The notes beneath the pieces were generated by a model. The model was not told the DNA's origin and made no database searches. It worked only from the letters and a program-made list of their open reading frames with translations. Positions 46,182 through 59,090 of a DNA stretch of 64,000 bases are shown here, in pieces (the first letter of the stretch is position 1; the number at the start of each line of letters is the position of its first letter). Location: positions 1,549 through 65,548 of IMG/VR virus record IMGVR_UViG_3300012928_002096; one strand, given 5' to 3'. Origin of the DNA: a virus. A program made the position numbers and the translations under genes.

Positions 46182-46460
46182 TTATAGCACAAAAAGCTGT
46201 ACAAGAGCAATCGAATTCATTAGTACAAACCAAGCACAAAGTACGATTGCAAAGGCTGCTTTTCTAATTACTGTACTTATAACACCAAGTATACTTCCTA
46301 ACAAATATAAGGGTATAAAAAGCTCAGTAGCAGGATCTAACACAGTAAAAGTTAAGATAACACTGGCTGCCATCAATACTGTAGTTTCAACCATCTCACA
46401 ATAAAAAGCCACGGGTGATAACCTATAGCTTTCTTTTATATATTCTAAAATCTTATTCAT
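46182..46460 (-). CDS. Small membrane protein
   Basis: Three hydrophobic segments. Confidence 0.7.
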   Translation of the reverse strand: MNKILEYIKESYRLSPVAFYCEMVETTVLMAASVILTFTVLDPATELFIPLYLLGSILGVISTVIRKAAFAIVLCAWFVLMNSIALVQLFVL

Positions 46461-46719
46461 CAGTATCGTAACCTGTGGTAGCTACGATTGTTTCTAAATC
46501 CTCAAATTCATCAGATACTCTACTCCAATCACGTTTTTGTGCAACTTTTATTGCTTTATTGATTAGACTAGGCTTTACGTTTAGTTCTTCGGCTACTGCT
46601 TTTACAGTTTCTTTCAGTCCACCTTGTAGATCTTCGATTTCCTGTAATACAGTTACACCTTCTTTCACTAGGCGTTCTAACTTGGCCTTTTCCTCTGGGC
46701 CATACACACGGTCACTCAT
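46453..46719 (-). CDS. T4 DsbA-like small dsDNA-binding protein
   Basis: LKETVKAVAEELNVKPSLINKAIK helical pattern; located upstream of DNA polymerase. Confidence 0.55.
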   Translation of the reverse strand: MSDRVYGPEEKAKLERLVKEGVTVLQEIEDLQGGLKETVKAVAEELNVKPSLINKAIKVAQKRDWSRVSDEFEDLETIVATTGYDTDE

Positions 46720-46744: not shown

Positions 46745-46773
46745 ATAGTAATAGAATATTGTCAAAATGTCAA
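46745..46773 (-). promoter_or_regulatory. sigma70-type promoter upstream of the DNA polymerase operon
   Basis: TTGACA-N17-TACTAT. Confidence 0.75.
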
Positions 46774-47216
46774 GCTTTAAATGACCCATCTACGTGTTTA
46801 TCTATATGCGCCAATATTTCATATCCTATAATTTCTGCTTTGTAATCTTGGTGGTCACCTAAGTAAAGATACTTATATCCTTGTGACTTCATCCAAGCAG
46901 GAACGTGGTGACTGAAGCGCCAACCAATACGCTTCCAAGGTTGTTCGTAATTCCAAGCAAATTGTTGACTAAATCCTACTTTATCATTAGGATACATTAA
47001 GGTCTGCTCCCAAGCAATAAGTTTATTATTTTCGTATAAGCAGTTCCAGGCATAAAGGTCAATATCATCCTGATATAAAGGATGTACACTTTCAAAATTT
47101 TTATGTTTGCAATATGTTACAAATACTTCTGTTGCTTCTTTAAGTGTTGGTTTAACATTCACAATGTCTGGATCTAATTCATAGTCTATCTTAGATAAAT
47201 CTATTCTACCGTACAT
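46770..47216 (-). CDS. ATE/Bpt-like aminoacyl-tRNA-protein transferase (C-domain-like)
   Basis: SQQFAWNY...IG...GYKYLYLG...YKAEIIGYEIL resembles the ATE_C YxYLG...YK motif. Confidence 0.55.
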   Translation of the reverse strand: MYGRIDLSKIDYELDPDIVNVKPTLKEATEVFVTYCKHKNFESVHPLYQDDIDLYAWNCLYENNKLIAWEQTLMYPNDKVGFSQQFAWNYEQPWKRIGWRFSHHVPAWMKSQGYKYLYLGDHQDYKAEIIGYEILAHIDKHVDGSFKA

Positions 47217-47892
47217 AATAACCTAACCTTTGTTCTTTGAAATATGGTTCAATATCTTCATACCAATCTTCATAAGGATTATCTATCCATTGATAACCTT
47301 CTTTGACAAGAGATTCTTTATACTCTGTTGTTGTATCTTGCCATATTGGTATATATTCATTCCATTTATCTTCAGTGGTGCCATCTGGATTACCACTAGG
47401 ACGGAAATGTATTTCAATAGGATTGTTTTCTTTGTATTCTACATTAATGATAGGTATGTCTATGGCTGCTAAAGGTTTTGGCAATACAGGTATATCATCA
47501 CTTTTTTTCCATCTTGTGAATTTTATGACATTTGTTTTATCATTCCAGCCTTGCCAATTATGTAAACAGTTCCACTCGTTGTTTTCTTTATAATATGTTG
47601 TTGAAAAATGTCTGCCTTCAAAATACTCACACCAAAAATATCCTGGTGGTACACTTGAAATATCCCCTTTTTCTAAAACTTTTATTGTTGTACAAATACC
47701 CATTCCACCTAAATTATATATAGGTCTTATTACGTATTCTTTTGTTTCAGGAATTTCTGTAGCACCTGGACCGCAACTGTATCCCATTGTTTCAGCTAGG
47801 TATAATTTATTCCACCACTTGTGTAAGTGTGGTAGTTGATTGTAAAGTTCGCGTTCTTCTAGATCGTAATCATCTATCCACTTCAGGCTCAT
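47206..47892 (-). CDS. ATP-grasp-like protein
   Basis: YVIRPIYNLGGMG, WCEYFEGRHFS, INVEY...IEIHFR. Confidence 0.55.
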   Translation of the reverse strand: MSLKWIDDYDLEERELYNQLPHLHKWWNKLYLAETMGYSCGPGATEIPETKEYVIRPIYNLGGMGICTTIKVLEKGDISSVPPGYFWCEYFEGRHFSTTYYKENNEWNCLHNWQGWNDKTNVIKFTRWKKSDDIPVLPKPLAAIDIPIINVEYKENNPIEIHFRPSGNPDGTTEDKWNEYIPIWQDTTTEYKESLVKEGYQWIDNPYEDWYEDIEPYFKEQRLGYYVR

Positions 47893-52185: not shown

Positions 52186-52374
52186 CTATTTATCTTTAGA
52201 GCGTTTACTGTTCTTCTTCTTAGGCTTGCCACCTAGGATGTTTGTGTCAATATCTAAGGCATTTTTTACTGTGCCATCTGGGTTTTTCATTTGTCTACTG
52301 ACCAATCCACCAACAGGCGCTGCTACTGTTGCTACTGCGGCTGCTGTTGTTTCACATAACTCTTTTATCTTCAT
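52186..52374 (-). CDS. Small basic protein with leader MKIKELCE
   Basis: 62 aa, Ala-rich then Lys-rich. Confidence 0.65.
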   Translation of the reverse strand: MKIKELCETTAAAVATVAAPVGGLVSRQMKNPDGTVKNALDIDTNILGGKPKKKNSKRSKDK

Positions 52375-53105
52375 TTTTTCTTTCTACCTGATTTCATATT
52401 CGCACACCAGTGATACATTTTTGCCTTTTCACCGCTTGCTTTTTTAGCACGTTTACGTAAATCTGTTACACTACCATTACAACTAGCACCTGAACGCTTT
52501 ACACGCCCTGGTCTGCTTTTGCCTTTTTTCTTACCATCTGCAAAGTTTTCACCAACTGCTTGTTTAATTGCTTTTGCTGTTCGTTCAAACTTGTGATCTT
52601 TATACTTAAAGCCAATTCCTCCAGCATCTTCCCAAGCATTTATATTAACACCGTAATCGTCAATTAATATGTTAGGACTACCATCTTCGTTTTTGGCAAA
52701 CTTTGGTTTGTTATGTGTAATAAACACATCTTTTGGCGGAAAAAATGCTAGATTATTTTTTATCCATTCACGCTTATGTGGTTCTGATCTTGGATCATCA
52801 GCTAATGGTGAACTACATATAAAATATTGCCCTTTTACTTTTTTAACAAGTCCTAGTAGATCTTTTGCTTGGGGCAGTAAAGGTAAATTCAACCAAAATT
52901 CATCAGTGTCTCTTATTTTTTGTAGTGCATCATCTATGTTATGTTGTTTGTTAATTTGTGTAAAATGGTCAACTTGCATTATTTTAGCCCATTCACCAAA
53001 AAAGTCAGCAAGAACACCATCCATATCAATATAGATTTCTGTATTAGGATTTAATCCTATTTCCTCTCTAAGGTTAATAAAATTTTCTAATTCACCAATC
53101 TTCAT
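52371..53105 (-). CDS. 5'(3')-deoxyribonucleotidase (HAD, NT5C-like) with basic C-terminal module
   Basis: YIDMDGVLADF, ICSSP, ILIDDY..NINAW..AGGIG. Confidence 0.85.
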   Translation of the reverse strand: MKIGELENFINLREEIGLNPNTEIYIDMDGVLADFFGEWAKIMQVDHFTQINKQHNIDDALQKIRDTDEFWLNLPLLPQAKDLLGLVKKVKGQYFICSSPLADDPRSEPHKREWIKNNLAFFPPKDVFITHNKPKFAKNEDGSPNILIDDYGVNINAWEDAGGIGFKYKDHKFERTAKAIKQAVGENFADGKKKGKSRPGRVKRSGASCNGSVTDLRKRAKKASGEKAKMYHWCANMKSGRKKK

Positions 53106-54869: not shown

Positions 54870-55559
54870 CTATTTATCTGTAAAAACTAATTGCTCTATC
54901 CTTTGTATATTATCCCCAACTAACATTTGAGCTATTAGTAATGTTTTAGCGTCACGTACATAAAAGTAGTAACCTTTAACATATCTACTATTTGTAATAC
55001 TTTCTTTGGCTTTGTCACCTATCTTTGCCAGGTGTGGATTTTCGTCTATCCATTTTACTAAGCTAGGTGTTCCTAACTTCTTTCCAAGTGTTACTTTATA
55101 CTGATATTGCGGTTCTTTGTCAACTAAAATAACATTTTTATTTTCTTGTAAAAATTGTATTTGTAAAGGATCGGGTTCATAAAACTCCACCCAATTTTCT
55201 TTGATATTATTTGATAAACTTGTTAAGAACTTCCTATCATTGCTGTATAAATTGAGTCTATGCATTTCAACTCGCACTAAGTAATCTACATCATTCCTTA
55301 TTAAATGTCTGTAAATTGTTATTGCATCATAATAATGTTTTGTATCAATAGATTCTTTAAATCTACTGCCAACAGGTAATGTTATTTGAGGTTTTCTAAA
55401 ATTATGATATCTGTTACATTCATCTAGCTTGCCTTTTGCATAACTTAATGTGCCTTCTTTTTGAAACTCAGTACGGAAAAAAGTAGCACATTGATTACGT
55501 ATACAAAGTTTGTAAAGATACTTGTTATAATGTAACTTTTTACTTTCATACAGTTTCAT
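54870..55559 (-). CDS. Hypothetical protein
   Basis: 229-aa ORF coupled to clpA. Confidence 0.7.
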   Translation of the reverse strand: MKLYESKKLHYNKYLYKLCIRNQCATFFRTEFQKEGTLSYAKGKLDECNRYHNFRKPQITLPVGSRFKESIDTKHYYDAITIYRHLIRNDVDYLVRVEMHRLNLYSNDRKFLTSLSNNIKENWVEFYEPDPLQIQFLQENKNVILVDKEPQYQYKVTLGKKLGTPSLVKWIDENPHLAKIGDKAKESITNSRYVKGYYFYVRDAKTLLIAQMLVGDNIQRIEQLVFTDK

Positions 55560-57792
55560 TTTCTTCTACCAAACAATCTAATTTGATTTCATCTTCTCTG
55601 AAATCGATTGTAACACTTCCGCCATTTTTAAGTTCACCAAAAAGTATTTTTTTACTTAGAGGACGTTTAATTTGTGCATCAATTACACGCTGTAACGGTC
55701 TTGCACCCATTTTAGGATTGAATCCTTTGTCAACTAAGAAGTCAAGAGCTTCGTCAGTAATGTCAATAGCAATATCTTTTTCTTGTACTTGTTGTTTTAG
55801 CTCTAGTAAAAACTTACCTACAATTTTCATCATTACTGGCTTGTCAAGTTTACCAAATGTAATAACACCATCTAGCCTGTTTCTAAACTCAGGTGGAAAA
55901 TATTTTTTAAAGTCAGTATCTTCATAGTCTTTATCGCTATCTTCACCAAAACCAATTGCATTTTTCTCAGCATCTTGTGACCCTAAGTTAGTAGTTAGTA
56001 TAAGTGTAGCATTACGTGCATCTGCTTCTTTACCGTTACTGCCTGTTACTCTACCATTGTCCATAATTTGTAACAAAATAGTGCTGATGTCTGGATGTGC
56101 TTTTTCTATTTCATCTAAAAGTAATACACAGTTTGGATTTTCTTGCAGTTTAGTAATAAGTTGGCCTGCGTCTTCTTCAAAACCTACATAACCTGGAGGC
56201 GAGCCAATCAGTTTACTAATACTATGCTTTTCTTGGAATTCACTCATATCAAAACGCACAAGTTTTACACCCAAATGATGTGCTAGTTGCTTGCTTAGTT
56301 CTGTTTTACCAACACCTGTTGGACCCATAAACACAAAACTACCAATTGGTTTGTTTTCACTTTTTAGTCCTGCTTGTGCTACTAAGATTTTATCAACAAT
56401 ATCTTCGATAGCATTGTCTTGACCATACACAACTGTTTTTAGATTATCTTCTAAGTTTGCTAAGTTTTCGCTTTCACGTTCTTTTACCTGTTCTTCAGGC
56501 AAGTTAATCATTTTTGCTAATTCAAACTGTATACTTTCTTCAGTTACAACTTTATTTTCAACTTGATCATTTACTTTGAATCTACTACAAGCAACATCAA
56601 TCAAATCTATTGCTTTATCAGGCAATTTTTTATCAGTTTGATATTTTACGCTAAGTTTTACGGCTGCGTTTATTGCTTCTTCTGTAATAGTAGTATTATG
56701 ATAACTTTCATAATATTGTTTAATACCTTTAAGTATTCTTACAGTGTTTTCTTGTGAAGGTTCGTCAACATTTACCCTTTGAAATCTTCTCATCAACGCA
56801 CGATCTTTTTCAAAGAACTTACGATACTCTTCCCAAGTTGTACTTGCAACAACTTTCAAGTTACCTTTAGTCAAAGCAGGCTTTAACATATTTGCCATAT
56901 CATTTGCACTGTTACTACCGCTTGCACCAGCACCACTTATCATATGTGCTTCGTCGATAAACATAATAGTTTTGCCTTTTTTCTGCAATGCAGAAATAAC
57001 CAACTTGAAACGCTCTTCAAAATCTCCTCTATACTTTGATCCTGCTAACATACTGCCAATATCCAATGTATAAACATTGTATTCTTTTAAAAACTCTGGT
57101 ACACTTCCGTGGACAATATTGTATGCAAGTCCTTCAGCAATAGCAGTCTTACCCACACCTGGTTCACCAACCATTAGCACATTACTTTTGCTTCTTCTAC
57201 CAAGTGCAAGTGCTACTTGCTCTAGTTCTTCACTGCGTCCAATAATAGGATCAATTTTATTATTTTTAACAAGACTGTTTAAGTCGCTTGTAAACTCTTT
57301 TAGTGCTTTATTAGCAATACCCATATTTTCTTGTGGGTTGTCATCGTCACTTCTATCAAATTCTGTGCTAATATAGTCTGCAAATTGCTGTTTATTTACA
57401 CCAGCCTGCTGTGTAATAAAATACGCATAACTTTTCTTTTCACTTAGTATACTTAGAAATACATCTGATATTTCTATCATATTACGCATACTAAACAATA
57501 CTTGTGTAAACGCTCTATTCAATACACGTTCTACTGTTTGTGTCTTAGCAGGTTTATATTCTTTACCTTTCTCAACTAAAATATTATCAAGTTTAGTTCT
57601 GAGATAATTTTCCAAATTCTTTTTAATATATTCAACGTCTGTGCCAAATCCTGTGACAAGTTCACTGAAATTATTTTCACACAACATTGCATATAGTAAA
57701 TGTTCTAATGTCACATACTCGTGACGTAGTTTTACTGCGTCTTTGACTACTTTATCAAATACAAGTTGTAATTCTTTAGACGGTTCTACCAT
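55546..57792 (-). CDS. clpA: ATP-dependent Clp protease ATP-binding subunit ClpA
   Basis: Clp_N (HEYVTLEHLL), two AAA modules (GEPGVGKT, GPTGVGKT), IGF ClpP-docking loop (NAIGFG), MGARPL. Confidence 0.95.
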   Translation of the reverse strand: MVEPSKELQLVFDKVVKDAVKLRHEYVTLEHLLYAMLCENNFSELVTGFGTDVEYIKKNLENYLRTKLDNILVEKGKEYKPAKTQTVERVLNRAFTQVLFSMRNMIEISDVFLSILSEKKSYAYFITQQAGVNKQQFADYISTEFDRSDDDNPQENMGIANKALKEFTSDLNSLVKNNKIDPIIGRSEELEQVALALGRRSKSNVLMVGEPGVGKTAIAEGLAYNIVHGSVPEFLKEYNVYTLDIGSMLAGSKYRGDFEERFKLVISALQKKGKTIMFIDEAHMISGAGASGSNSANDMANMLKPALTKGNLKVVASTTWEEYRKFFEKDRALMRRFQRVNVDEPSQENTVRILKGIKQYYESYHNTTITEEAINAAVKLSVKYQTDKKLPDKAIDLIDVACSRFKVNDQVENKVVTEESIQFELAKMINLPEEQVKERESENLANLEDNLKTVVYGQDNAIEDIVDKILVAQAGLKSENKPIGSFVFMGPTGVGKTELSKQLAHHLGVKLVRFDMSEFQEKHSISKLIGSPPGYVGFEEDAGQLITKLQENPNCVLLLDEIEKAHPDISTILLQIMDNGRVTGSNGKEADARNATLILTTNLGSQDAEKNAIGFGEDSDKDYEDTDFKKYFPPEFRNRLDGVITFGKLDKPVMMKIVGKFLLELKQQVQEKDIAIDITDEALDFLVDKGFNPKMGARPLQRVIDAQIKRPLSKKILFGELKNGGSVTIDFREDEIKLDCLVEENETV

Positions 57793-58312
57793 TTACTTTC
57801 CTTTTATATTTTTTATGTCTTTTCTTTTCTGCTAAGTTTAATTTTAATTTAGACACTCTATTAATGAATTGCACACCTTGTAAATGATCATACTCGTGTA
57901 AGAATATTCTTGCATCAATATCATCAAATTTTGTTTCTACGTGTATTACGCTTTTACCATCTGGTGTAATAGTATCAAATTCTACCATACAACTCATAGG
58001 ACGTCTTACTTTCAAAAACAAGTCAGGATGACTCAAACAACCTTCAACACCTAGTTCAAGTTCTTTACTCAAACCTTTAATCATTGGATTAATTACTGTA
58101 GTTATGTCGCCATATTGTTTATTAAGCATAGTTCTCATAACAAAAATTTGTCCGTCAAATCCTACTTGATTTGCACTGAGTCCTAAACCGTGATGCTTAC
58201 GCATTACGTCCATCATATCAAATGCAATTGGCGCCGGATGTATATTTGTAATATCAAACGGTCGTACAGAATTTTCTAACATAACATCAGGTGCGAGAAT
58301 TAAGTTCATCAT
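57776..58312 (-). CDS. def: Peptide deformylase
   Basis: GLGLSANQVG, EGCLS, HEYDHLQG. Confidence 0.95.
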   Translation of the reverse strand: MMNLILAPDVMLENSVRPFDITNIHPAPIAFDMMDVMRKHHGLGLSANQVGFDGQIFVMRTMLNKQYGDITTVINPMIKGLSKELELGVEGCLSHPDLFLKVRRPMSCMVEFDTITPDGKSVIHVETKFDDIDARIFLHEYDHLQGVQFINRVSKLKLNLAEKKRHKKYKRKVNGRTV

Positions 58313-59090
58313 TTAACTGTCTTATCCTATCTAAATCTTCATACCTATCTAATTTAGGCGTAGTTCCTTTTACTTCAACATACACGTTGCCTGTACGTTG
58401 TGTTTTATAATCTTTGATTCCGTAACCTGGAATACTTAATATTGTGCCTGGATGTGTGCCTGGAGGAATCTTAATAGCAATTGTGCCTCCTCCTAATTTG
58501 TCTATAGTTGTTTCTGTGCCTAAAATAAGTTCTAATACATTTATACTACAAAATGTTCTCAAATGCAACCTATCTCTTACATATTTTGGATGACTTTTAA
58601 CATTTATTTTAGCAAGTAAGTTTCCCCTTGGTAGTTGTTTAAAATAGTTGTCACCTAAGCCTGCAAGTTGTAATATTTGTCCGCTTTCAATGCCTGCTGG
58701 TACGTGAATATTTGCAACTACTTCTTCACCAGAACGTAACTGATATCTGCCAATAATATTTTTGCCTTGTATAACATCTTCTAAATTAACATTTACATTA
58801 ATAGTAACATCTTGATTTCGCCTTTGTACTCTTCTGCCTTGGTGAAAAAACGCTCCAAAAATATCATTCATATTTTGACTGTTGAAATTCATTTCTGGTC
58901 TAGGAGGAGCATCATAATGAGCCTTTTTATCAGGATCTTTTAGCGTGTCATATGCTTCATTTATTTCTTGAAACATTTTTTGGTCACCACCTTTGTCAGG
59001 GTGATGCTTCATTGCTAATTTTTTATATGCTCGTTTGAGTTCTTCAGGAGATGCTGATTTGTCAACACCTAACCGCTTGTAATAGTCCAT
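58287..59090 (-). CDS. dnaJ: DnaJ/CbpA-type co-chaperone (no Zn finger)
   Basis: J domain YKKLAMKHHPDKGG; DnaJ_C region. Confidence 0.9.
   Translation of the reverse strand: MDYYKRLGVDKSASPEELKRAYKKLAMKHHPDKGGDQKMFQEINEAYDTLKDPDKKAHYDAPPRPEMNFNSQNMNDIFGAFFHQGRRVQRRNQDVTINVNVNLEDVIQGKNIIGRYQLRSGEEVVANIHVPAGIESGQILQLAGLGDNYFKQLPRGNLLAKINVKSHPKYVRDRLHLRTFCSINVLELILGTETTIDKLGGGTIAIKIPPGTHPGTILSIPGYGIKDYKTQRTGNVYVEVKGTTPKLDRYEDLDRIRQLNDELNSRT

What the first reader, a model, noticed from the sequence alone, without database searches (positions are those of the whole stretch)
46770..47892. Coupled ATP-grasp ligase + ATE/Bpt-like aminoacyl-tRNA transferase pair
Seen: two overlapping genes (11-nt overlap) at the end of the head-protein run, just before the sigma70 promoter of the polymerase operon. 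Known: ATP-grasp enzymes such as RimK add Glu to protein termini, and ATE1/Bpt transfer Arg or Leu from tRNA to N-terminal Asp/Glu. Inference: a two-step peptide-tagging system that marks host or phage proteins, or a tRNA-dependent dipeptide-building module.
Basis: inference. Interest (0 to 1): 0.65.

Follow-up and report, generated by a model that had tools for sequence, protein, structure and literature searches.

The report
Phage ATP-grasp ligase plus tRNA-dependent transferase
An uncultured marine jumbo phage carries two overlapping, well-conserved genes, a stripped-down ATP-powered ligase and a half-size relative of the enzymes that move amino acids from tRNA onto other molecules, which probably form amide bonds one after the other on a target that is still unknown.

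Summary
Two minus-strand genes, A (47206-47892, 228 aa) and B (46770-47216, 148 aa), overlap by 11 nt. Both are under strong purifying selection (dN/dS 0.07 and 0.04).

The fold guesses also hold.
- A has no Pfam or PDB sequence match. Its confident model (pLDDT 93) is an ATP-grasp closest to L-amino-acid ligases and PurK/PurT (Z about 11.6), and it lacks the N-terminal domain.
- B (pLDDT 94) is a single GNAT domain. It matches the aminoacyl-tRNA-binding lobe of MprF, FemX and ATE1 (Z up to 15.2).
- B's family reaches Pfam ATE_C and keeps klAte1's Trp260, Tyr303 and Lys304 equivalents. It lacks ATE_N, the half that reads acidic N-termini.

The pairing is real but not general.
- In 80 loci with B, B abuts A in 26 and a different 165-aa protein, c3, in 53. 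Only one locus has neither.
- c3 may be related to haem-thiolate enzymes, on weak evidence.
- A-B adjacency arose at least twice on the B tree.
- Half of the 80 A loci sampled (42), and all A homologs in cultured phages, lack B.

My best reading (about 0.4) is two successive amide-bond steps on a shared small acceptor. N-degron tagging that feeds the phage's own ClpA is a live rival (about 0.2). I rate this a new variant of a known theme. No substrate was tested.

The parts
47206..47892 (-). Gene A: a minimal ATP-grasp carboxylate-amine ligase (228 aa). It has four short N-terminal helices in place of the pre-ATP-grasp domain.
   Evidence: ORF. No Pfam match for any of 43 family members at E<=1 and no PDB sequence match at E<=10; PHROG phrog_3577, function unknown. 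AF2 model has pLDDT 93.1. All top-50 hits of an unbiased PDB scan are ATP-grasp enzymes, led by L-amino-acid ligase 3vot (Z 11.6, 206 residues aligned) and BacD (11.4); PurK reaches 11.7 in the second-look scan. Invariant residues R56, G63, E89, E152, E160, H162 and R164 lie on the strands where the ATP-grasp motifs sit.
46770..47216 (-). Gene B: a stand-alone single-domain GNAT of the ATE_C / aminoacyl-tRNA transferase type (148 aa), without an ATE_N domain.
   Evidence: ORF. 27 of 38 family members hit Pfam ATE_C (best 4e-7), though the window's own copy does not. The family profile hits klAte1 7wfx at E 1e-3. AF2 model has pLDDT 94.1. It matches the C-terminal GNAT lobe of MprF (Z 15.2) and FemX (14.1), plus Sba18/Sbb17 and ATE1. 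W88, Y125 and K126 align with klAte1 Trp260, Tyr303 and Lys304 (PMC9351520).
47206..47216 (-). The 11-nt overlap: B's ATG lies inside A's last codons.
   Evidence: Read directly from the sequence. A and B frames also overlap or abut in every A->B locus of other phages.
47870..47892 (-). The 23-nt overlap between the end of the upstream 917-aa gene and A's start, which suggests one transcription unit.
   Evidence: ORF coordinates. The same 917-aa / A / B / 88-aa / DNA polymerase order recurs in L002-L004 and L013-L022.
46745..46773 (-). Promoter-like TTGACA-17-TACTAT immediately after B's stop codon. It marks the downstream boundary of the pair and is not shown to function.
   Evidence: matches 10 of 12 positions, but the region holds no more such sites than shuffled sequence does.

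Best explanation
A and B are a co-transcribed, translationally coupled pair of amide-bond-forming enzymes that use two different energy sources.

A is a minimal ATP-grasp ligase of the L-amino-acid-ligase / PurK / PurT / PylC structural type. It would activate a carboxylate as an acyl-phosphate with ATP and join it to an amine.

B is the catalytic, aminoacyl-tRNA-binding GNAT lobe of the ATE/Bpt-MprF-FemX superfamily. It would take an aminoacyl group from a host aminoacyl-tRNA and put it on a free amine, or a hydroxylamine/hydroxyl, of an acceptor. In the window's clade the donor pocket is hydrophobic (S83, F101, V105, L117), more like Bpt than ATE1, so the donor is probably a hydrophobic residue.

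I think the two enzymes act in succession on one shared acceptor, and that this acceptor is a small amino-acid-like metabolite or short peptide rather than a folded protein's N-terminus.

Shown here: the genes, their conservation, both folds, the ATE_C-type residues in B, and the recurrent adjacency.
Inferred: that the enzymes are active, that they share an acceptor, the order of the steps, the donor amino acid, and every substrate.
For: Folds:
- A is ATP-grasp.
- B is a GNAT of the aa-tRNA transferase type.

Family placement of B:
- ATE_C matches in 27 of 38 relatives.
- The profile hits klAte1 with an ungapped core.
- Relatives of 225-270 aa carry ATE_C above Pfam's cut-off.

Functional residues:
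- B's W88, Y125 and K126 align with klAte1 Trp260 (tRNA), Tyr303 and Lys304 (catalysis), and are invariant or nearly so (PMC9351520).
- A's invariant R56, G63/G65, E89, E152 and E160-x-H162-x-R164 lie on the strands that carry the ATP and Mg motifs.

Coupling:
- 11-nt overlap.
- The pair is intact in 21 of 21 close relatives. It also appears in a second A->B clade in another gene context (L034, L055, L057, L117-L121) and in a B->A arrangement (L038, L064).
- On the B tree the A-linked label needs at least two changes.
- B is almost never alone: of 80 loci, 26 have A beside it, 53 have c3, and 1 has neither. A and c3 nearly exclude each other.

Why a small acceptor:
- A's whole length aligns best with small-molecule ligases (Z 11.6-11.0). 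RimK (7.4), TTLL (6.9) and graspetide ligases (6.0-6.5) align only over residues 1-180.
- c3 weakly matches DUF6875 and YqcI/YcgG, families of haem enzymes that hydroxylate free Trp or Arg (bioRxiv 10.64898/2025.12.11.692455; PMC12866846).
- The argolaphos gene cluster combines an ATP-grasp ligase, a YqcI/YcgG protein and two FemAB-type GNAT ligases (PMC8976061).
- Linked ATP-grasp and GNAT ligases are a described theme for successive peptide ligations (PMC4431377).

Selection: dN/dS 0.07 for A and 0.04 for B.
Against: - No substrate, product or interaction was tested.
- Both families mostly live apart. 42 of 80 A loci lack B within about 4 kb, including two at 70% identity to the window's A. 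Cultured Synechococcus phages have A but no B. 54 of 80 B loci lack A. A was not found elsewhere in ten c3-B fragments.
- Many A, B and c3 genes sit at one spot, just upstream of the 88-aa gene and DNA polymerase. Some adjacency may therefore reflect a shared insertion hotspot.
- Gene overlaps are common in this phage, so the 11-nt overlap is weak evidence of partnership.
- H162 replaces the usual Asn, and R56 the usual Lys, of ATP-grasp motifs. I mapped these from memory of the motifs, not from a residue-level structural alignment.
- B's only characterised sequence relatives (ATE1, Bpt) act on proteins, not small molecules.
- Why a phage would make such a metabolite is unexplained.
Confidence: 0.4

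Rival explanations
1. N-degron writer. B adds a destabilising hydrophobic residue from aa-tRNA to N-termini of host or phage proteins, as Bpt/Aat do. The tagged proteins then go through host ClpS to the phage-encoded ClpA and host ClpP. A prepares or extends the N-terminus, or tags a C-terminus.
For: - B's only sequence-level family is ATE_C, whose known members write N-degrons.
- The donor pocket is hydrophobic, Bpt-like (PMC9351520).
- The window encodes a full ClpA with a Clp_N domain, peptide deformylase and DnaJ at 55546-59090.
- ClpA occurs in 5 of 10 large B-carrying fragments.
- Jumbo phages are known to carry ClpS, ClpP and ClpA (PMC7824862).
- ATP-grasp ligases that acylate peptide N-termini are among A's structural matches (8ynq/8ynd, Z 10.2-10.3).
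Against: - B lacks ATE_N. In klAte1 that half supplies Arg80, Tyr25 and Tyr87 for the acidic N-terminus and the basic tRNA helix Lys112-Lys123 (PMC9351520).
- No ClpS was found in the 67-kb record, which is only about 19% of the genome.
- The ClpA co-occurrence is within one related phage group and has no control.
- A resembles small-molecule ligases more than RimK or TTL.
- B's commoner partner, c3, resembles enzymes that act on free amino acids.
Confidence: 0.2
2. Two unrelated accessory enzymes. A and B work on different targets and lie side by side only because both landed in the same variable spot upstream of the DNA polymerase module and were then inherited together.
For: - 42 of the 80 A loci sampled lack B. 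Forty of these (about 40% identical to the window's A) include 33 that sit between a UvsW-type helicase and a gp47-like gene. A few have A alone at the polymerase hotspot: L151-L154, L097 and L098.
- Complete cultured cyanophage genomes have A but no B.
- c3-B fragments lack A.
- No A-B fusion appears among the top 150 of 191 profile hits; the longest is 274 aa.
Against: - A-B adjacency occurs in at least three gene contexts and both gene orders, and needs at least two origins on the B tree.
- c3 is missing in 25 of 26 loci where A is beside B, though c3 is otherwise present in 53 of 54. A random hotspot would not predict that.
- A and B identities to the window track each other across loci.
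Confidence: 0.25
3. Envelope remodelling. B aminoacylates a lipid or a cell-wall precursor, as MprF or FemX do, and A acts like a Ddl/MurE-type ligase on the same precursor. The result changes the host surface, for example to exclude other phages.
For: - B's best structural matches are the MprF/aaPGS synthase lobe (Z 15.2-14.2) and FemX (14.1).
- D-Ala-D-Ala ligases are among A's matches (Z 9.5-9.9).
- A 92-aa hydrophobic, probably membrane protein lies two genes downstream at 46182-46460.
Against: - Z differences among GNAT aa-tRNA transferases are small.
- B's sequence affinity is to ATE_C, not to the MprF or FemAB families.
- B has no membrane segment and only one GNAT lobe.
- Ddl enzymes match A only over residues 1-178, and less well than L-amino-acid ligases.
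Confidence: 0.1
4. B is an ordinary acyl-CoA-dependent N-acetyltransferase and has nothing to do with tRNA.
For: The GNAT fold is shared with many acetyltransferases. VipF, serotonin N-acetyltransferase and N-myristoyltransferase lobes score Z 12-13. One Atlas cluster is auto-named 'putative N-acetyltransferase'.
Against: - The loop before helix 3 reads (K/L)-R-(I/L)-G-(W/I)-x. That does not fit the Q/R-x-x-G-x-G/A pyrophosphate-binding signature of CoA-using GNATs. I read this; the signature itself is from established knowledge.
- The invariant W88, Y125 and K126 match ATE1's tRNA and catalytic residues.
- The only Pfam family reached is ATE_C.
Confidence: 0.05

Closest known systems
ATE1 / bacterial Bpt aminoacyl-tRNA-protein transferases (Pfam ATE_N + ATE_C; klAte1 structures 7WFX-7WG4)
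   Same: B's family reaches ATE_C by sequence. It shares the GNAT core motif, in which klAte1 has W...LG...YYYLG...YK. Equivalents of Trp260, Tyr303 and Lys304 are conserved. The donor pocket of the window's clade is hydrophobic, as in Bpt.
   Different: B has 148 aa against about 240 (Bpt) or 500 (ATE1). It has no ATE_N, so it lacks the acidic-N-terminus pocket and the basic tRNA helix. It gives no NCBIfam arginyltransferase match, and its own sequence is below Pfam's threshold. Its acceptor is unknown.
MprF/aaPGS synthase domain, FemX, and Sbb17/Sba18 tRNA-dependent amide synthases (tandem-GNAT aa-tRNA transferases)
   Same: These are B's best structural matches. All of B (residues 1-144) superposes on their C-terminal, aa-tRNA-binding GNAT lobe (Z 15.2, 14.1 and 12.6).
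   Different: Those enzymes have two GNAT lobes in one chain, and B has one. There is no detectable sequence match to those families.
L-amino-acid ligases (BL00235 3VOT, BacD/YwfE, RizA), PurK/PurT and PylC: small-molecule ATP-grasp ligases
   Same: A's whole chain superposes on their central and C-terminal domains (Z 10.1-11.7, about 175-210 residues). Conserved acidic and basic residues lie on the equivalent strands.
   Different: A lacks the N-terminal pre-ATP-grasp domain. It is 228 aa against 350-470. It has no sequence match to any Pfam ATP-grasp model. His and Arg stand where Asn and Lys are usual.
Biosynthetic clusters that link ATP-grasp and GNAT (aa-tRNA) ligases, e.g. argolaphos AlpC / AlpD / AlpF / AlpO (PMC8976061); the general theme is described in PMC4431377
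   Same: The same combination of enzyme classes: an ATP-grasp ligase plus a tRNA-dependent GNAT ligase. In sister phages a YqcI/DUF6875-like protein joins or replaces the ATP-grasp.
   Different: Here the genes are phage-encoded and miniaturised, with no other biosynthetic genes, transporter or precursor gene recognised nearby. No homology to the Alp proteins was shown.

Membership tests
ATP-grasp superfamily (gene A) | ATP-grasp fold: a central domain plus a C-terminal domain that clasp ATP. | tested here: met
   AF2 pLDDT 93.1. Foldseek gives 72 PDB hits at E<=1e-3, and all those listed are ATP-grasp. In the unbiased VIA scan all top-50 hits are ATP-grasp; the best is Z 11.6, rmsd 4.4, 206 residues aligned.
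ATP-grasp superfamily (gene A) | Sequence match to a curated ATP-grasp model. | tested here: not met
   No ATP-grasp Pfam family for any of 43 members at E<=1. No PDB sequence hit at E<=10.
ATP-grasp superfamily (gene A) | Catalytic set: a basic residue before a Gly-rich loop, a hinge Glu, and two acidic residues plus Asn for Mg-ATP. | tested here: inconclusive
   Invariant R56, G63/G65, E89, E152 and E160-x-H162-x-R164 fall on strands 51-57, 85-89, 148-154 and 157-162. The residue-by-residue equivalence rests on my memory of the motifs. No model coordinates were available to check it.
ATP-grasp superfamily (gene A) | N-terminal pre-ATP-grasp (substrate) domain. | tested here: not met
   In most top hits the aligned chain range begins at residue 62-106, while A residues 1-35 are four short helices.
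RimK-type protein C-terminal glutamate ligases | Closest structural similarity to RimK. | tested here: not met
   RimK 4iwx scores Z 7.4 over residues 1-179 only. L-amino-acid ligases and PurK/PurT score 11.0-11.7 over 8-228.
ATE/Bpt aminoacyl-tRNA-protein transferases (gene B) | ATE_C domain. | tested here: inconclusive
   The window's own B has no Pfam hit. 27 of 38 family members do (best 4e-7). The family profile hits klAte1 at E 1e-3. Longer relatives exceed the Pfam cut-off. Membership therefore holds for the family by transitivity, not for this sequence alone.
ATE/Bpt aminoacyl-tRNA-protein transferases (gene B) | ATE_N domain with the acceptor (Asp/Glu N-terminus) pocket. | tested here: not met
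   B is 148 aa and all of it maps onto one GNAT lobe. There is no ATE_N hit in B or in its 225-270 aa relatives. B begins where those relatives' N-terminal 55-100 residues end. The klAte1 pocket residues lie in the missing half (PMC9351520).
ATE/Bpt aminoacyl-tRNA-protein transferases (gene B) | Conserved tRNA-end and catalytic residues (klAte1 Trp260, Tyr303, Lys304). | tested here: met
   W88 and Y125 are invariant. K126 is present in 37 of 38 sequences. They align without gaps to the klAte1 residues.
ATE/Bpt aminoacyl-tRNA-protein transferases (gene B) | Match to NCBIfam arginyltransferase equivalog models. | tested here: not met
   No hit for the window's B. Longer relatives score 19-61 bits against cut-offs of 170-358.
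Tandem-GNAT aa-tRNA transferases (MprF, FemX, Sbb17) | Two GNAT lobes in one polypeptide. | tested here: not met
   B has a single lobe and aligns only to chain ranges 643-841 (MprF), 146-389 (FemX 6snr) or 146-315 (Weissella FemX), and 121-293 (Sba18/Sbb17).
Acyl-CoA-dependent GNAT acetyltransferases | Q/R-x-x-G-x-G/A pyrophosphate-binding loop. | tested here: not met
   The loop reads K95-R96-I97-G98-W99-R100 in the window and L-R-L-G-I-x in the family consensus. There is no Gly/Ala at +2 and no Gln/Arg at -3.
Any aminoacyl-tRNA transferase | Transfer of an aminoacyl group from tRNA to an acceptor. | not testable with these tools
   This needs a biochemical assay.

The most novel reading that the evidence does not exclude
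The phage writes its own degradation tags. B, a half-size Bpt-like enzyme, adds a hydrophobic residue from host aminoacyl-tRNA to the N-termini of chosen host proteins. A (or c3 in sister phages) supplies the missing acceptor-recognition half as a bound partner, or prepares the N-terminus. The tagged proteins are then destroyed through ClpS and the phage-encoded ClpA. This would be a virus-encoded N-degron pathway.
Probability: 0.15. Interest if true: 0.85.

Novelty: new variant of a known kind. Interest (0 to 1): 0.55.

Why it matters
- Aminoacyl-tRNA transferases of the ATE/Bpt type are known as cellular N-degron writers. I found no description of a phage-encoded one: not in a jumbo-phage comparative review that lists Clp components, GNATs and ATP-grasp ligases (PMC7824862), and not in full-text searches.
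- B would be the smallest member of the superfamily, a single GNAT lobe of about 140 aa. It could show what the minimal tRNA-dependent transferase needs.
- The rule that B is always flanked by one of two unrelated small enzymes, A or c3, points to a modular phage pathway that draws on charged host tRNA for something other than translation. That pathway could make a metabolite or a protein tag.
- A is an ATP-grasp family invisible to sequence models. It is widespread in marine T4-like phages, including cultured cyanophages where it could be studied.

Tried and rejected
- Direct Pfam, NCBIfam and PDB sequence searches of A and B gave nothing. Only family profiles and structure worked.
- I asked whether c3 is a diverged A or B. 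hhalign probability was below 1% for both. The ~142-aa neighbour of A in A-only loci is not a hidden B either.
- I asked whether c3 is an ATE_N-like half because of its 'PCP(F/Y)' motif. There is no ATE_N hit. It weakly matches DUF6875 (14 of 22 members, best 3e-5), DUF1415 (5 of 22) and YqcI_YcgG (1 of 22) instead. The PDB profile search was uninformative.
- A as an R2K/DUF4343 phage ATP-grasp (PMC4431377): no Pfam hit.
- Looked for A elsewhere in c3-B phages: none in ten fragments, each only 12-38% complete, so this is not decisive.
- Looked for ClpS in the record: none, but the record is about 19% of the genome.
- No tRNA genes in the window.
- The T4 late-promoter motif TATAAATA occurs once in 64 kb, far from the pair.
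- No A-B or c3-B fusion among the top 150 of 191 B-profile hits.
- Both structure-prediction jobs went on A and B, so neither c3 nor an A+B complex could be modelled.
- Iyer et al. 2009 (PMC3268129) is not held.
Full report
**1. What is there**

Two ATG-initiated ORFs lie on the minus strand. A runs 47206..47892 (228 aa) and B runs 46770..47216 (148 aa). B's start codon sits inside A's last codons, giving an 11-nt overlap. The upstream 917-aa gene overlaps A's start by 23 nt. Downstream lie a 50-nt gap, an 88-aa helix-turn-helix-like gene, a 92-aa hydrophobic, probably membrane protein and a T4-type DNA polymerase.

The record is a 67-kb fragment that CheckV puts at about 19% of a genome. Its polymerase is closest to those of 350-490-kb jumbo myoviruses: Sinorhizobium phage Phosso at 50% and Agrobacterium phage Atu_ph07 at 48%.

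A TTGACA-17-TACTAT match follows B's stop, but such matches occur here at chance frequency. I could not verify that the upstream genes are head proteins.

**2. Are they real genes**

Yes.
- A has 143 relatives and B has 83 in the large protein set. IMG/VR holds 457 and 389 confirmed stretches.
- Against the nearest relative, L002, dN/dS is 0.069 for A and 0.041 for B.
- Twenty-six columns of the A alignment and 21 of the B alignment are invariant, at mean column identity of 46-49%.

**3. Gene A**

No sequence method names A.
- There is no Pfam hit for any of 43 members, even at E<=1.
- A profile search of PDB sequences finds nothing at E<=10.
- PHROGs gives only an unnamed family.

The AlphaFold model built on 43 sequences is confident (pLDDT 93.1, pTM 0.89).
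- Foldseek returns only ATP-grasp enzymes among its listed hits, led by PylC, L-amino-acid ligases, PurK and an ATP-grasp peptide ligase.
- An unbiased scan of 48,161 representative chains gives ATP-grasp enzymes in all top 50 places. The leaders are L-amino-acid ligase 3vot (Z 11.6, 206 residues aligned), BacD (11.4), PurK (11.2), PurT (11.0) and PylC (10.1).
- RimK (7.4), LysX/ArgX (9.0-9.3), TTLL (6.4-6.9) and graspetide ligases (6.0-6.5) match only residues 1 to about 180.
- In most top hits the target range starts at residue 62-106. A therefore lacks the N-terminal pre-ATP-grasp domain and has four short helices in its place.

The invariant residues R56, G63/G65, E89, E152, E160, H162 and R164 sit on the strands that carry the phosphate-loop, hinge and Mg-binding motifs in this fold. 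I made that assignment from established knowledge of ATP-grasp motifs. I did not check it with a residue-level superposition.

**4. Gene B**

The window's own B has no Pfam or NCBIfam hit. Its family does connect to known enzymes.
- 27 of 38 aligned relatives hit ATE_C, the C-terminal domain of arginyl-tRNA-protein transferase (best 4e-7).
- The family profile hits K. lactis Ate1 structures at E 1e-3, with an ungapped core.
- A profile search of 1.84 billion representatives finds only 191 proteins. Among them are 225-270-aa forms that carry ATE_C above Pfam's cut-off, have no ATE_N, and match bacterial arginyltransferase models only weakly. B begins exactly where the N-terminal 55-100 residues of those forms end.

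The model (pLDDT 94.1) is one complete GNAT domain.
- Its best matches are the second, aminoacyl-tRNA-binding lobe of tandem-GNAT transferases: MprF (Z 15.2, 139 residues aligned), FemX (14.1) and Sba18/Sbb17 (12.5-12.6). ATE1 appears in Foldseek at E 5.6e-5.
- I mapped the alignment onto the klAte1 mutagenesis paper (PMC9351520; chain index = native + 4). This gives W88 = Trp260 (tRNA binding), Y125/K126 = Tyr303/Lys304 (tRNA end and catalysis), and donor-pocket positions S83, F101, V105 and L117 = Ser255, Ser273, Glu277 and Tyr289.
- Bpt has Ala, Ala, Gln and Leu at those pocket positions. The window's B therefore has a hydrophobic pocket, closer to Bpt than to ATE1.
- The residues klAte1 uses to read an acidic N-terminus (Arg80, Tyr25, Tyr87) and its basic tRNA helix lie in the half that B does not have.
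- The CoA pyrophosphate signature of acetyltransferases is absent.

**5. Do the genes belong together**

Starting from B (80 IMG/VR loci):
- A abuts B in 26. That covers all 21 close relatives, three A->B loci in another gene context (L034, L055, L057), and two loci in the order B->A (L038, L064).
- In 53 of the other 54 loci, B abuts a different protein of about 165 aa, which I call c3. It lies either upstream on the same strand or convergent against B's end. L040 has neither partner, and L064 has c3-B-A.

Starting from A (80 loci):
- 38 loci have B.
- 42 do not. Forty of these are the part of the family about 40% identical to the window's A, and 33 of them sit between a UvsW-type helicase and a gp47-like gene. 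The other two are 70% identical to the window's A.
- Cultured Synechococcus phages have A but no B.
- Ten c3-B fragments have no A elsewhere.

On a maximum-likelihood tree of B, the A-linked copies form three supported groups, and the label needs at least two changes.

So A-B is a recurrent but lineage-limited pairing. B itself is almost never without one of two alternative neighbours, and A and c3 nearly exclude each other next to B. Part of this may reflect a shared insertion spot upstream of the polymerase module. However, both the c3-B and the A-B pairs also travel together in other contexts.

**6. What c3 suggests**

- c3 is unrelated to A or B.
- It has an invariant N-terminal Cys in a 'PPCPF' motif and an 'ALEDHP' motif.
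- It weakly matches DUF6875 (14 of 22 members, best 3e-5), DUF1415 and YqcI/YcgG.
- DUF6875 has been renamed cytochrome P422, a family of thiolate-haem enzymes that hydroxylate free tryptophan (bioRxiv 10.64898/2025.12.11.692455).
- YqcI/YcgG proteins are haem arginine N-hydroxylases (PMC12866846).
- The argolaphos cluster combines an ATP-grasp ligase, a YqcI/YcgG protein and two FemAB-type GNAT ligases (PMC8976061).
- All c3-linked B copies in the 38-sequence family alignment keep Ser at position 101 and Glu at position 105, which align with klAte1's Ser273 and its arginine-binding Glu277. Across all loci the Glu is constant. The window's clade has Phe and Val there.

These are leads, not proofs. 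They make a small-molecule acceptor plausible for the family.

**7. Most likely mechanism**

I commit, at about 0.4, to a two-step amide-forming module. A uses ATP to join a carboxylate to an amine. B adds a hydrophobic aminoacyl group from host aminoacyl-tRNA to a free amine of the same small acceptor, or the steps run in the reverse order.

The rivals are:
- an N-degron writer feeding the phage's own ClpA (0.2). The window encodes ClpA, Def and DnaJ at 55546-59090, and ClpA is in 5 of 10 B-carrying fragments;
- independent enzymes that merely share a hotspot (0.25);
- envelope remodelling (0.1);
- a plain acetyltransferase (0.05).

**8. Comparison and novelty**

Linked ATP-grasp and GNAT ligases are a described bacterial theme (PMC4431377). 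This is therefore a new variant of a known kind, not a new kind of system.

What appears undescribed:
- a phage-borne, single-lobe ATE_C-type transferase;
- its either/or partnership with a sequence-orphan mini ATP-grasp or a c3 protein.

A jumbo-phage comparative review lists Clp components, GNATs and R2K ATP-grasp ligases but, by term search, no ATE/Bpt-like enzyme (PMC7824862). My full-text searches found nothing on it.

**9. Limits**

- No biochemistry was done.
- All neighbourhood data come from fragmentary IMG/VR contigs.

Noticed in passing
L023-L081 (e.g. L029:3499-3999, L037:3471-4001, L024:4412-4945 minus strand): In sister phages, B's constant neighbour is c3, a protein of about 165 aa (alignment A3). 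c3 has an invariant Cys in 'PPCPF' and an 'ALEDHP' motif, and weakly matches the haem-thiolate families DUF6875/P422, DUF1415 and YqcI/YcgG. All c3-linked B copies keep the Glu that aligns with the arginine-binding Glu277 of klAte1. A haem-enzyme-like protein paired with a tRNA-dependent transferase may be a pathway of its own.
   Followed up: partly
window 55546-59090 (minus strand): The phage encodes a full ClpA-type unfoldase (Clp_N plus two AAA modules), peptide deformylase and a DnaJ. ClpA homologs are present in 5 of 10 other large fragments that carry B.
   Followed up: partly
window 46453-46719 (minus strand): An 88-aa helix-turn-helix-like protein (phrog_12534 / phrog_639, 'transcriptional regulator') is conserved upstream of the DNA polymerase in 44 of the 80 B loci. 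It marks the spot where A, B and c3 are inserted.
   Followed up: partly
proteins P0230, P0241, P0266, P0271, P0288 and others: There is a family of 225-270-aa Bpt-like proteins with ATE_C but no ATE_N match. They carry a conserved, cysteine-free N-terminal region that includes an 'EE-x-AL-x-x-GW' motif. B looks like a truncation of this form.
   Followed up: partly
L122-L161 (e.g. L122:3986-4654): In 33 of the A-only loci, A sits between a UvsW-type helicase and a gp47-like phosphoesterase in T4-like phages. It is flanked by an unnamed ~142-aa protein and an unnamed ~198-aa protein, with an NAD-dependent epimerase/dehydratase gene close by in about half of these loci.
   Followed up: partly
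L005:2687-3334 and relatives L006-L010: In one sub-clade a phage ferredoxin-like auxiliary gene (phrog_3704, E 3e-104) lies immediately upstream of the A-B pair.
   Followed up: no
window 52371-53105 (minus strand): An NT5C-type 5'-deoxynucleotidase homolog (Pfam NT5C, E 8e-8) lies among otherwise unnamed genes upstream of the pair.
   Followed up: no
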